A DNA stretch of 64,000 nt from Styela clava. Taxonomy: Eukaryota. Below are positions 21,001 through 24,000 of the stretch, piece by piece (position 1 is the first letter of the stretch; each line of letters starts with the position of its first letter). The stretch covers positions 8,618,001-8,682,000 of the forward strand of contig NC_135264.1 in the NCBI RefSeq assembly GCF_964204865.1, written 5' to 3'. The position numbers were made by a program.

Positions 21001-24000
21001 CGGAAGCTAACAAGTTAGAGCGAGGATTTAATTTTTCTTCCGTTTGGCCTAACCCAGCTATGTTGAGTTATTATAGTCAATAATAACTAATGTTGCGCAA
21101 ATAGGTTTGGTGTAAAGCCCTTGAACAAAAGCGGTCGCGTTAAAGTGGGGGATACGGATGTCGTGTAGTGAAAGGGCAAGCAACGACACTTGAAGATATT
21201 TCGCCCGATACTTGTCGCAAAACTTGAGAATAATTTCGTTAGCAGATGTGAAGGTACACAGCGATAGGGAAATTGAATCGCTCTTTATTTACCAAACATG
21301 AGCCAGAGATAAAATATAAATGATTTTCATGGCATCATAGTTGATCTTTGAAGTAATTATGATTTAGTAGTTCGAGTCTGGAAAGAAATAGCGAATGGAA
21401 TAGATATGTACTTAGCAATGAGAAACGTAATAATTACCTTCCCAATTTAAAACTGTTTCAGTTAGAAGCTTTTGTAATTTAATACAACGTAGCTGGTTAA
21501 TTTCTCATAAGTTTTTTAAAAATATTTTTTTGAGTAATTTGGCAATCAATTTGAGTCCTACATTCGACATCTTTCAAACTCTGGAATTGTCTCTAAAATT
21601 GTAAAAAAGGTGTATTTTACAAGTGCCTTACTTAATATGATCATAAATTTCAAATATCCTTCTGTTCTGAGTTTTTGTGAGTATTGGTATAGTATAGACA
21701 AGACGCCGATGAGAAATAGATCCAATAGCAGACATGAAAACGATAAAATTCGCCCAATTGTCATATGAAATGTCGTAGTAAGCGACAAAAAGTTGCTTTC
21801 GCGCACCCGATAAACGTTTTGTATTTTGCGGACAAAATGTGACATCTGAGGCCACGCTTATACATTACAAATGTCGATAAATTTAAAAATCTTGAAAGAT
21901 AACAGATTTCATAACTGTTGAGAATAACGTAAAAATTATTCGAAAATTGGGTCGGTGACTTCAGTAGCAAAATAACTATTTTGGATTGAGTATTTGATTC
22001 TAGTAATACTTTAATGTTACATGGTCATTGATGCTCTTAGGTTGCCAATCAAATTATAGTTCCAATAATATTTCCCACAATTACCTAGATCGTTTTCTGA
22101 TTAGTTTTCATACGAGTGTAAATTGAGGGTATGAGAGAGTGAATAAGATGCAGTTATGCTAAACTTCTACTACACGTCTTTCCCATTGCTTAGCGACTTG
22201 GGTAAATCTGGTAAACTAAATCCCATAACTCAAAGTAAATAAACAATCGAACAAGTTTAGTCTACTTTGTGTTTCTCTTTATCCGAGGTAAGCTTATAAT
22301 CTGCCAGGAAGGATCAACAAATTAACTCCAGATTTGGTATAGTGTCAAGTTTCGGAATTTTCATACATTCTTCCCATGTAGACCTATTTGGTTTGTTTGT
22401 ATGTTGGCATTGAAGGCCAAATTGATAACCGTTTCACATAAGAAAGTATTAAAAGGTTTTTATGATCTAAAAGAGAAGAATTGAAAAACGTGTTCAATGT
22501 GTTCAGAATTACAATGTCAGCGGTTTATTATGTTCAAGTAGTTGTCAGATTATGACTGGTTAAATTGTATGTTTCAGCCTTTTTTTCTGTTGAACTCCCT
22601 CCCTAAACTTAGGGCTGTAATTAGCCTTTTGTACCACAATTTTTCATATCTCTTCTAATATTTCAATATACCTACATCTGAGTTTGTTGCCTATTTAATT
22701 CGTGGTTCTGCTTTACAAATGTATAACCCCGTTGAACAGAAGTTATAAGTGCTTGTCTGTTCACTTCACCAAGTCTTTCACCACGCCTTTAAACGAGTAA
22801 CATAAATAAACATCAAATATAAATAATGTTCTTTCAATTCCTCTAGAAGTGTGTGCCTTAGTATGTCAAATGTGCCAAAGCTTAGAGTAAGAATTTGAAT
22901 TGTTACAAATGGCATACAATAACTCTTCAAGGATTTGCAAGAGAAGATTGTAAATTTTTGGCAACAGCTTTTTGTGTCATGACGTCACCAAAGTCTGTTA
23001 GCGTTTCTGAACAAGAGTCGGCATCGTGGTGCAGTGAACCTCAAAAGATGGCGGAAAACGTATCAATGCTGTCAGCGTCTGATGCGGTTATCGAGGACAA
23101 AATTTGTTCAGGCCTTTCAGATTTAAGTCAAGCGTGCCACGTGACCCCTTGTGCTTTTGAGCAAAGGAAACGATCAAACTTAGTTTCAAAGGTTTTTGAT
23201 GAAGGATTTACAAACTCCGACATTTTTGAGGATATCACTCATATGAAAACCGTCTTCAGAAAGACGCCCGCTTCATGTGAAATGCGACAAATGAGGAGAC
23301 ATTTAGCGACTCAATCCTCTTCTCACGTTACAAAAATATCTTCAAATTGTCCAAAAAGGCAATTTACTCAAATCAACGATAATTATATGAAAGAAACCTT
23401 AACGAACTCCAGTAGAAAATCTTTCGTCAGAACAATTCAACCATGCAACAGATTATGTACAAAGTGTCGTTCACGTCATTTTAGTCCTTTAAAAAACCTA
23501 TTTATTTATTCGGTTTTCGTCATTGTCATCTTCCTGGCACACCATCCTGTGTTGTCTGCTAAAACTCGGCATCTGAGGAAGCGACAGCGTGATACAGATT
23601 TAGGTGTAAACGAAATTATTATGCCTATGTTTCCGAATGCTGGATCTAATGAAGGTACAGTTTCAATGACATAGATTGTATTTAATCGTATAAAAACTAG
23701 GTGACAGTTACATACTAATTTCTTATTTTTTCACCACGTTTTGCGGAACAGTATCGGTGTATGCGTTCATTCTTCTAACCAATGTGGAAATAGGGCCCGT
23801 TCATGTTCAAATTTCTGAATATTTAACTGATTTCATTTGCATTGCTGTGTTATGGCCGGTTAATATGATTCTGATAGCAACTGATTTTTGAGGCCAAAGT
23901 ATGGTAACAGAGCATATGGTATACCAGCCAGTTTCCCACCCGTTTCCAAAACCATCCCCGACCTTTCATGAGCTTTATACTATTGTTACGTAGGAAGTAT

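What the first reader, a model, noticed from the sequence alone, without database searches (positions are those of the whole stretch)
22979..23654. Exon C: possible type II membrane-anchored laminin with a cytoplasmic tail of about 170 aa
Seen: this is the longest ORF in the window. 173 Ser/Thr/basic-rich residues are followed by a single hydrophobic segment (23498 onward) and then a polybasic KTRHLRKRQR just before LN. A Cys cluster (CNRLCTKC) and basic residues sit immediately before the hydrophobic segment. Known: laminin chains normally begin with a short cleaved signal, and this layout is typical of furin-shed type II proteins and of transmembrane agrin. Inference: a cell-tethered laminin released by convertase. 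The hydrophobic core is only about 14 aa and VLSA/K could be a signal peptidase site, so a very long cleavable signal is the alternative.
Basis: partly seen in the sequence, partly recalled or inferred. Interest (0 to 1): 0.75.

Follow-up and report, generated by a model that had tools for sequence, protein, structure and literature searches.

The report
Long orphan leader before laminin gene
A long open reading frame with no known relatives ends in a signal-like hydrophobic stretch just upstream of a laminin alpha gene, and may give that laminin an unusually long leader or, less likely, a membrane anchor; without transcript data this cannot be settled.

Summary
ATG 22979 to donor 23655 is 225 codons plus one base, inside the longest open frame of the window (262 codons). 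It has a 173-residue Ser/Thr/basic tail, a 14-residue hydrophobic core from 23498, then HHPVLSA and KTRHLRKRQR. The frame is not open by chance: 7 of 20000 shuffles keep the 167 codons before the late Met open. It is in phase with the first LN exon (25823-25971) of an alpha1/alpha2-type laminin, which has no start codon of its own.

The join is only inferred. The donor scores below all 28 reference donors of the gene. The tail has no relative anywhere I could search. A rival first exon with a textbook short signal and a GTAAGT phase-1 donor lies at 8653-8758.

The hydrophobic stretch fits a cleavable signal better than an anchor, and no canonical furin motif is present. My best reading is an alternative 5' exon giving an N-extended, mostly cleaved signal (0.35). 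A tethered, convertase-shed laminin is possible (0.15). No transcript or related-genome data were available.

The parts
22886..23671 (+). Stop-to-stop open frame of 262 codons, the longest in the window
   Evidence: 0 of 20000 dinucleotide shuffles stay open.
22979..23654 (+). Exon C as read by the finding: first ATG to the base before the GT donor, 225 codons plus 1 base (phase 1)
   Evidence: In-frame Mets at residues 1, 24, 30, 89, 102, 105 and 137. Met24 (23048) has the best start context.
22979..23497 (+). 173-residue Ser/Thr/basic tail with no detectable relative and no confident fold
   Evidence: no relative. (pLDDT under 50 for residues 5-170). (codon score between exon and non-exon ORFs).
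23444..23467 (+). Cys cluster CNRLCTKC, followed by basic residues, on the N side of the hydrophobic stretch
23498..23539 (+). Hydrophobic core of 14 residues (residues 174-187). The uncharged span is 23495-23560 (22 residues).
   Evidence: Only part of the AlphaFold model with pLDDT about 70-77.
23540..23560 (+). HHPVLSA: a c-region-like stretch with Pro and small residues; a possible signal peptidase site after S or A
   Evidence: Criteria from passages of bioRxiv 10.1101/2020.11.11.378711.
23561..23590 (+). Polybasic KTRHLRKRQR: one minimal R-x-x-R and one KR, no canonical R-x-K/R-R
23655..23660 (+). Candidate donor AAG|GTACAG, phase 1, weak
   Evidence: score 0.12, below all 28 reference donors (minimum 0.46). 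9.1% of all GT in the window score at least as high.
22966..22967 (+). AG of a moderate acceptor-like site 11 nt before the first ATG (the exon would start at 22968, phase 1)
   Evidence: score 1.42, top 6% of all AG. No transcript evidence.
25823..25971 (+). First LN-domain exon of the laminin alpha gene, with a strong phase-1 acceptor. Contains RRRRKR.
   Evidence: acceptor score 6.16, top 0.9% of all AG..
26792..26929 (+). Second LN exon
34506..34751 (+). Third LN exon
   Evidence: laminin alpha-1 chain 8dmk_A, E 6.1e-31.
34940..35119 (+). Fourth LN exon
8653..8758 (+). Rival first coding exon: a 35-codon classical short signal plus 1 base, donor TGG|GTAAGT in phase 1
   Evidence: donor score 3.37, top 2% of all GT. 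Chance level for such sites is not negligible.
8341..8652 (+). 104-codon open frame in frame with and directly upstream of the rival signal exon
   Evidence: 21 of 20000 shuffles stay open.

Best explanation
Exon C is a real, lineage-restricted coding frame. I read it as an alternative 5' coding exon of an alpha1/alpha2-type laminin gene that supplies the start codon and the signal for entry into the endoplasmic reticulum. The signal is internal. A 14-residue hydrophobic core and an HHPVLSA c-region sit behind a leader of about 150-173 residues that has no relatives and is probably disordered (start at Met1 or Met24).

The most likely course is this. The hydrophobic stretch targets the nascent chain to the translocon with the leader staying on the cytosolic side. 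Signal peptidase cuts after VLS or VLSA in most molecules. The laminin then leaves as an ordinary secreted chain carrying a 31-residue basic N-terminal peptide, which may be trimmed at RHLR or KR. The leader stays behind as a membrane-embedded signal remnant. Because long n-regions lower cleavage efficiency, an uncleaved, membrane-held fraction is plausible.

Shown: the ORF, its non-chance length, the motifs, the phase match and the laminin identity. Inferred: the splice, the start codon, the topology, the cleavage and the trimming.
For: - ORF length: 7 of 20000 shuffles keep the 167 codons before Met137 open, and the other five frames have 9-12 stops. 0 of 20000 keep the whole frame open.
- The LN exon has a strong phase-1 acceptor and no in-frame ATG of its own. 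Exon C ends in phase 1, 2168 nt upstream.
- A hydrophobic stretch this strong occurs 12 times in 20268 residues of non-exon ORFs, about 0.16 per 262 residues. Here it sits at the 3' end, where a signal is needed.
- The core of 14 residues and the 7-residue c-region fit the 7-15 and 3-7 residue ranges and the small -1/-3 rule (passages).
- n-regions range from about 3 to over 100 residues. Internal signals are cleaved, but less efficiently as the n-region lengthens (PMC13578380, section 8). Signal peptides of 40 residues or more are documented (PMC2447879, abstract).
- Six in-frame ATGs precede Met137, and Met24 has the best context.
- The codon score of the tail is -0.007 per codon. It lies above 95% of 339 non-exon ORFs and within the lower 14% of 43 exon cores.
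Against: - The donor at 23655 scores below all 28 reference donors. 9% of all GT in the window score as high. At least one phase-1 GT after the hydrophobic stretch is expected by chance.
- No relative of the tail in any search.
- The frame-preference test is inconclusive: margin 0.019-0.054 against exon mean 0.194 and non-exon mean -0.054.
- The AlphaFold model has mean pLDDT 42. Atlas recognition is 1581, below the 2300 that 91 in 100 proteins of known families reach.
- A textbook signal exon with a far better donor exists at 8653-8758.
- Another orphan 219-codon ORF sits in an intron of the same gene. A long orphan ORF here therefore need not be a laminin exon.
- I could run no signal or topology predictor, and had no transcript data and no related genome.
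Confidence: 0.35

Rival explanations
1. Translation from Met1 or Met24 gives a type II membrane-anchored laminin alpha chain. The 173-residue tail is cytosolic, the hydrophobic stretch is an uncleaved signal anchor, and the LN tip is held at the membrane until a proprotein convertase cuts in the polybasic run. It may be one isoform beside a secreted one.
For: - 22 uncharged residues with a 19-residue hydropathy mean of 2.2.
- Cys cluster and basic residues on the N side.
- Long n-regions reduce signal peptidase cleavage (PMC13578380, section 8).
- N-terminal extension turns cleaved signals into anchors in C1QL proteins. A predicted list of such cases is said to include laminin (bioRxiv 10.1101/2024.02.16.580719, passages; its supplementary table was not seen).
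- Agrin has a type II form made from an alternative first exon (PMC4210653, passage).
- A second candidate 5' exon, also preceded by a long open frame, exists at 8341-8758.
Against: - The continuous core is only 14 residues, followed by His-His-Pro and small residues. That is signal-peptide geometry.
- Flank charges are equal, +4 and +4, so there is no positive-inside bias.
- No canonical R-x-K/R-R in exon C. Canonical motifs do occur inside the LN and LG exons, so basic runs are a general trait of this chain.
- Phrase searches for a membrane-anchored, transmembrane, membrane-bound or membrane-tethered laminin gave 10 papers. None concerned an anchored laminin chain, judging by titles and abstract openings.
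- All the doubts about the splice apply here too.
Confidence: 0.15
2. Late start. Transcription begins inside the ORF and translation starts at Met137 (23387). This gives a 58-residue signal peptide with a 37-residue n-region and normal cleavage. The upstream frame would be untranslated.
For: - The hydrophobic stretch and c-region look like a signal peptide.
- Codon and frame statistics for the tail are not clearly exon-like.
- The tail has no relatives and no predicted fold.
Against: - The 167 codons upstream of Met137 are open in frame in only 7 of 20000 shuffles.
- Six in-frame ATGs lie upstream, so the 5' end would have to fall within the 96 nt between 23291 and 23387.
- Even this form has an atypically long n-region.
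Confidence: 0.15
3. Not joined. The laminin starts at a conventional first exon, best candidate 8653-8758. Exon C, lying in the 17-kb first intron, would then be a separate small single-pass membrane protein gene (231 residues to the stop at 23672-23674) or a decaying remnant of a gene.
For: - The 8653 exon has a short n-region, an 11-residue core and VTA before Q. Its 106 coding nt are in phase 1 and its donor TGG|GTAAGT scores 3.37, top 2% of all GT.
- Human LAMA2 has a splice donor after coding nt 112, also phase 1 and of similar size. This rests on variant nomenclature only (PMC13349271, passages).
- Exon C's donor scores below all 28 reference donors.
- The ORF closes 6 codons after that GT.
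- Another orphan ORF of 219 codons lies in a later intron.
Against: - Signal-like ATG ORFs with a donor scoring 3 or more occur 8 times on the + strand and 0 times on the - strand of the window. That is roughly 0.5 expected per phase per 25 kb, so the 8653 exon is not statistically compelling.
- None of 8 start variants of the free-standing ORF is in the 15-billion-protein collection.
- Exon C is the nearest signal-bearing ORF to the LN exon.
Confidence: 0.35

Closest known systems
Laminin alpha1/alpha2-type chains
   Same: LN domain split over four exons, EGF-like repeats, two Laminin_B domains, coiled coil and LG. The best solved relative is the laminin alpha-1 LN domain. The first LN exon starts at residue 2 of that chain.
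   Different: Known chains start with a short cleaved signal (general knowledge). Here the nearest in-phase 5' exon carries a leader of 136-173 residues before the hydrophobic stretch, and a 31-residue basic peptide after it.
Transmembrane agrin
   Same: A matrix protein made type II by an alternative first exon (PMC4210653, passage). In this window there may likewise be one conventional 5' exon and one N-extended 5' exon.
   Different: The agrin isoforms are established by experiment. Here neither exon's use is shown. The hydrophobic stretch here looks more cleavable. The agrin alternative exon replaces a domain, whereas here only the leader would differ.
Neuronal pentraxin receptor and C1QL dual proteoforms
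   Same: The length of the N-terminal extension decides whether one hydrophobic stretch is a signal anchor or a cleaved signal. The paper states that the predicted cases include laminin (bioRxiv 10.1101/2024.02.16.580719, passages). Met1/Met24 versus Met137 could play this role here.
   Different: Those extensions are short and come from alternative start codons on one mRNA. Here six in-frame ATGs separate the candidate starts, so leaky scanning is unlikely. The supplementary list was not seen.
Long and internal ER signal sequences
   Same: n-regions up to over 100 residues and signal peptides of 40 residues or more are documented and are cleaved, less efficiently when longer (PMC13578380, section 8; PMC2447879, abstract).
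   Different: 173 residues is beyond the range in the passages I read. No laminin is among the examples I saw.
Netrin-G
   Same: An LN-domain protein held at the cell surface. The LN homology is shown by a weak hit to netrin-G1 chain 3zyj_B (E 7.9e-05).
   Different: Its anchor is a C-terminal lipid anchor (recalled, from no call), not an N-terminal one. It is not a laminin chain.

Membership tests
Laminin alpha chain | N-terminal LN domain | tested here: met
   Pfam Laminin_N on 4 of 4 LN exon ORFs, 3 above the gathering score. Laminin alpha-1 chain 8dmk_A at E 6.1e-31 and 9.5e-12.
Laminin alpha chain | Laminin EGF repeats, Laminin_B domains, coiled coil and C-terminal LG domains | tested here: met
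   Of 9 exon cores scanned, EGF_laminin and Laminin_B (twice) are above cut-off. Laminin_I and Laminin_G_2 are below cut-off. One core has a weak unrelated match and 3 have none. The window ends inside the LG region.
Laminin alpha chain | Exon C is part of the same mRNA | not testable with these tools
   Only position, strand and phase agree. The donor is weak. There are no transcript data.
Cleavable ER signal peptide | Hydrophobic h-region of 7-15 residues | tested here: met
   14-residue core. Range from the passage.
Cleavable ER signal peptide | c-region of 3-7 residues with small uncharged residues at -1 and -3 | tested here: met
   HHPVLSA. A cut after S gives V at -3 and S at -1. A cut after A gives L at -3 and A at -1, which fits less well (rule).
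Cleavable ER signal peptide | Short n-region (1-5 residues typical) | tested here: not met
   36 residues from Met137 or 173 from Met1. Longer n-regions are known, from 3 to over 100 residues.
Type II signal-anchor protein | Uncleaved hydrophobic span long enough to cross the bilayer (about 20 residues) | tested here: inconclusive
   22 uncharged residues, but only 14 are continuously hydrophobic, followed by His-His-Pro. No predictor was available.
Type II signal-anchor protein | More positive charge on the N-terminal (cytosolic) flank | tested here: not met
   +4 on each 15-residue flank. The rule itself is recalled.
Convertase-shed membrane protein | Canonical R-x-K/R-R site between anchor and ectodomain | tested here: not met
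   0 canonical motifs in exon C, one minimal R-x-x-R and one KR in the run. The motif definition is recalled.
Agrin-like alternative first exons (secreted and anchored forms) | Two mutually exclusive 5' exons joined to the same second exon | tested here: inconclusive
   Two phase-1 candidates at 8653-8758 and 22979-23654, and a weaker third at 14786-14936. Chance candidates are common. There are no transcripts.

The most novel reading that the evidence does not exclude
The laminin alpha gene uses alternative 5' exons (8341-8758 and 22979-23654). Each encodes its own long cytosolic tail followed by a signal anchor. The polymerising LN tip of the chain is therefore held at the producing cell's membrane until a convertase cuts at the basic run. 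This would be the first membrane-anchored laminin chain, with isoform-specific cytosolic tails.
Probability: 0.12. Interest if true: 0.8.

Novelty: new variant of a known kind. Interest (0 to 1): 0.4.

Why it matters
Laminins are taken to be purely secreted proteins whose LN tips polymerise freely into basement membranes. A chain made with a long cytosolic leader, even if held in the membrane only briefly, would give the producing cell control over where and when polymerisation starts. It would also extend to a core matrix protein the switch between signal anchor and signal peptide seen in agrin, the neuronal pentraxin receptor and C1QL. If the exon is instead a separate orphan gene, or if the leader is simply cleaved off, the finding is a gene-model curiosity.

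Tried and rejected
Searches for relatives of the 225-residue exon product:
- Pfam gave only a sub-threshold OATP match, E 0.054.
- The 5.8-billion-cluster search gave nothing at 395-2000 residues (813 candidates) or at 123-394 residues (79 candidates).
- The 1.84-billion representative library gave 2 hits (E 1.5e-05 and 5.7e-05). Both are highly repetitive proteins matched in 5 stretches, and I reject them as compositional.
- Solved structures gave 8 rows at E 0.13-2, none credible.
- The ESM Atlas gave no usable hit.
- An exact look-up of 8 start variants of the free-standing ORF found 0 of 8.

Control against over-reading these blanks: the well-conserved LN exon 34506-34763 also found nothing at 152-2000 residues (18 candidates). 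Full-length alpha chains exceed that band. The negatives therefore say little about animal proteins.

Other tests:
- Paralogy of the two candidate 5' exons is rejected (best E 1.3).
- Exon C is single-copy in the window.
- Synonymous-codon scoring separated exon cores from non-exon ORFs poorly (AUC 0.74), and GC3 did not separate them at all (0.354 against 0.355).
- The frame-preference test was inconclusive.
- CpG observed/expected showed no promoter island. It is about 1 over most of 6-27 kb, range 0.53-1.35.
- A cassette-exon reading (8758 to 22968, then 23654 to 25823) is in frame, but it would put the laminin body on the cytosolic side of a stop-transfer segment, so I reject it.
- Fold search was not run because the model is poor (mean pLDDT 42).
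- Genome contigs holds only bacteria and archaea and was not used.
- PMC2823450 is not held, and PMC6966886 had the agrin term only in its reference list.

Limits of my own statistics:
- The 43 exon cores were hand-picked from the ORF lists. Only 13 were checked against Pfam. 9 matched a laminin family at the E-values listed, 6 of them above the family's gathering score.
- The splice matrices use 28 of 42 junctions. 13 scored under 5 and 1 had no solution. They were first selected with a generic consensus that I recalled, so they lean towards that consensus.
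Full report
**What is there**

The window is AT-rich (about 35% G+C), has no N and is not CpG-depleted (observed/expected about 1 in most 1-kb windows of 6-27 kb, range 0.53-1.35). I do not take it for human or for any vertebrate.

On the + strand, an ATG at 22979 opens 225 codons plus one base up to a GT at 23655. The surrounding stop-to-stop frame (22886-23671, 262 codons) is the longest in all six frames; the next longest are 219 and 173 codons.

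The product has these parts:
- a 173-residue tail with S 27, T 13, K 13, R 12, C 9 and net charge +8;
- CNRLCTKC at 23444-23467;
- one hydrophobic stretch starting at 23498, with a 14-residue core, a 22-residue uncharged span and a 19-residue hydropathy mean of 2.2;
- HHPVLSA at 23540-23560;
- KTRHLRKRQR at 23561-23590;
- 21 further residues to the exon end.

**Is it more than chance?**

Yes, as far as the open frame goes.
- 0 of 20000 dinucleotide-preserving shuffles keep the whole frame open.
- 7 of 20000 keep open the 167 codons upstream of the late Met (residue 137). The other five frames of that stretch have 9-12 stops.
- About 6e-4 runs of this length are expected in the window.

Codon statistics are less clear. 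I trained a codon score on 43 hand-picked laminin exon cores (2229 codons) against 339 other ORFs of 45 codons or more. The tail scores -0.007 bits per codon, between the non-exon mean (-0.216, sd 0.133) and the exon mean (+0.192, sd 0.161). 5% of non-exon ORFs score as high and 14% of exon cores score as low. A frame-preference test is inconclusive. The tail differs in composition from laminin domains, so an intermediate score is not surprising.

**The neighbour is a laminin alpha gene**

- The ORFs holding the four exons at 25823-25971, 26792-26929, 34506-34751 and 34940-35119 match Pfam Laminin_N.
- Later exon cores match EGF_laminin, Laminin_B (twice) and, below cut-off, Laminin_I and Laminin_G_2. 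Of 9 cores scanned, 5 matched a laminin family, 1 had a weak unrelated match and 3 had none.
- The best solved relative is laminin alpha-1 (8dmk_A, E 6.1e-31), ahead of alpha-5. The first residue of the first LN exon aligns with residue 2 of that chain.
- That exon has a strong phase-1 acceptor (score 6.16, top 0.9% of all AG).
- Its open segment has no in-frame ATG upstream of the domain. An upstream exon must therefore bring the start codon and the signal.

I searched the model exon by exon. The joined exon C plus LN protein was not built or searched.

**Is exon C that upstream exon?**

For:
- It is on the same strand, 2168 nt upstream, and ends in phase 1 as required.
- It carries a signal-like hydrophobic stretch at its 3' end. 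A stretch that strong occurs only 12 times in 20268 residues of non-exon ORFs.
- No strong acceptor lies inside it, so it would be a first coding exon. There is a moderate one at 22968, 11 nt before the ATG (top 6% of all AG). That site could take a non-coding leader exon.

Against:
- The donor AAG|GTACAG scores 0.12 on a matrix built from 28 of the gene's 42 inferred junctions. That is below all 28 donors (minimum 0.46), and 9% of all GT in the window do as well.
- With three phase-1 GT after the hydrophobic stretch, the phase match carries little weight.

**A rival first exon**

At 8653-8758 an ATG opens a textbook short signal: one basic residue, an 11-residue core, and VTA before Q. Twelve more residues follow, and then TGG|GTAAGT, also in phase 1. 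Its donor scores 3.37, in the top 2% of all GT.

Its 106 coding nt resemble the first coding exon of human LAMA2, which has a donor after coding nt 112, again phase 1. I take this from variant names in PMC13349271, of which I read passages.

A loose scan for a signal-like ATG ORF followed by a donor scoring 3 or more finds 8 sites on the + strand and 0 on the - strand. That is roughly 0.5 expected per phase per 25 kb, so this exon is a candidate and not a demonstration.

This exon too is preceded by a long in-frame open stretch of 104 codons; 21 of 20000 shuffles stay open. The two 5' candidates are not similar in sequence. A third, weaker candidate lies at 14786-14936.

**Relatives of the tail**

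None were found in Pfam, the two large protein libraries, solved structures, the ESM Atlas or the exact look-up.

These blanks are weak evidence. A conserved LN exon also found nothing in the 152-2000 residue band, and full-length alpha chains lie above that band. No eukaryotic genome or transcriptome collection was open to me.

A single-sequence AlphaFold model is poor: mean pLDDT 42, under 50 for residues 5-170, and about 70-77 only over the hydrophobic stretch.

**Anchor or cleaved signal?**

By the criteria quoted in bioRxiv 10.1101/2020.11.11.378711 (passages), the stretch fits a cleavable signal. Those criteria are an h-region of 7-15 residues, a c-region of 3-7 residues, and small uncharged residues at -1 and -3. 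Here the core is 14 residues, followed by a 7-residue c-region with Pro, and V-L-S or L-S-A before the cut.

Three points speak for an anchor:
- the 22-residue uncharged span;
- the juxtamembrane Cys and basic residues;
- the length of the leader.

On leader length, n-regions span about 3 to over 100 residues and cleavage falls as they lengthen (PMC13578380, section 8). N-terminal extension converts cleaved signals to anchors in C1QL proteins. That paper says its predicted cases include laminin (bioRxiv 10.1101/2024.02.16.580719, passages; supplementary table not seen).

The flank charges are equal at +4 and +4, so orientation is not dictated by charge. I lean towards cleavage in most molecules, with a possible uncleaved fraction.

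**Shedding**

Exon C has no canonical R-x-K/R-R. It has one minimal R-x-x-R (residues 197-200) and a KR (201-202). Canonical motifs occur inside the first LN exon (RRRRKR) and in an LG exon (RRKRRRR). Basic runs are therefore a general trait of this chain and not a mark of a shedding site.

**Start codon**

Six in-frame ATGs precede Met137. Met24 (23048) has the best context and Met1 an acceptable one (the context rule is recalled). A late start needs a transcript 5' end within 96 nt, and it leaves the long open frame unexplained.

**Comparison and novelty**

The gene is an ordinary alpha1/alpha2-type laminin. The possible leader is not ordinary.

The closest precedents are:
- transmembrane agrin, made type II by an alternative first exon (PMC4210653, passage);
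- the neuronal pentraxin receptor and C1QL proteoform switch;
- long or internal signal sequences.

Phrase searches for a membrane-anchored, transmembrane, membrane-bound or membrane-tethered laminin returned 10 papers. None concerned an anchored laminin chain, judging by titles and abstract openings. A further search combining laminin alpha with signal-anchor terms listed 10 of 125 papers, and in none of the 10 did 'laminin alpha' occur.

**Verdict**

My probabilities are:
- exon C is a 5' exon giving an N-extended, mostly cleaved signal: 0.35;
- not joined to the laminin, which starts at a conventional exon such as 8653-8758: 0.35;
- type II anchored and convertase-shed: 0.15;
- late Met start: 0.15.

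Transcript junctions and 5' ends would settle three of these four readings at once.

Noticed in passing
window 4691-4794 (-): A full-length U6 spliceosomal RNA gene (89.6 bits, E 1.3e-21). It is the only Rfam match at gathering score in the window.
   Followed up: no
window 42895-43551 (+): A 219-codon open frame inside the 10-kb intron between LN exon 4 and the next exon. 0 of 20000 shuffles stay open. From its Met at 42958 it has a hydrophobic N-terminus and is rich in Tyr and Arg. It has no Pfam match and no Atlas hit. It may be a nested gene or a remnant.
   Followed up: partly
window 8341-8758 (+): A candidate conventional signal exon with a GTAAGT phase-1 donor. It is itself preceded by 104 open in-frame codons containing further Mets (21 of 20000 shuffles stay open). 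It has the same layout as exon C but no sequence similarity to it.
   Followed up: partly
window 14786-14936 (+): A third ATG ORF with a long hydrophobic stretch and an AAA|GTGAGT donor in phase 1 (score 4.04). It has no Pfam match.
   Followed up: partly
window 25942-25959 and 63624-63644 (+): Canonical convertase-type basic runs inside laminin exons: RRRRKR in the first LN exon, where the solved alpha-1 chain has no such run, and RRKRRRR in an LG exon.
   Followed up: partly
window 46498-47064: A tandem repeat of a 188-bp unit, 3.0 copies with 96% matches, in an intron after the fourth EGF-like exon. Its copies also gave two of the false signal-like hits.
   Followed up: no
window 60193-60438: A tandem duplication of a 132-bp unit, 1.9 copies with 86% matches. 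It repeats an LG-exon-like open frame (ORFs at 60116-60268 and 60272-60400).
   Followed up: no
window 61292-61810 (-): A 173-codon open frame on the opposite strand within the LG region, the third longest in the window. It is unexplained.
   Followed up: no
window 1-2000: The window's most G+C-rich 2 kb (0.396). It holds a 32-bp tandem repeat at 1122-1188 and the highest local coding-like score outside the laminin exons, at 821-1000 (14.5 bits).
   Followed up: no
window 6001-27000: CpG observed/expected is about 1.0-1.3 in most 1-kb windows (range 0.53-1.35). The region shows no CpG depletion and no promoter island.
   Followed up: no
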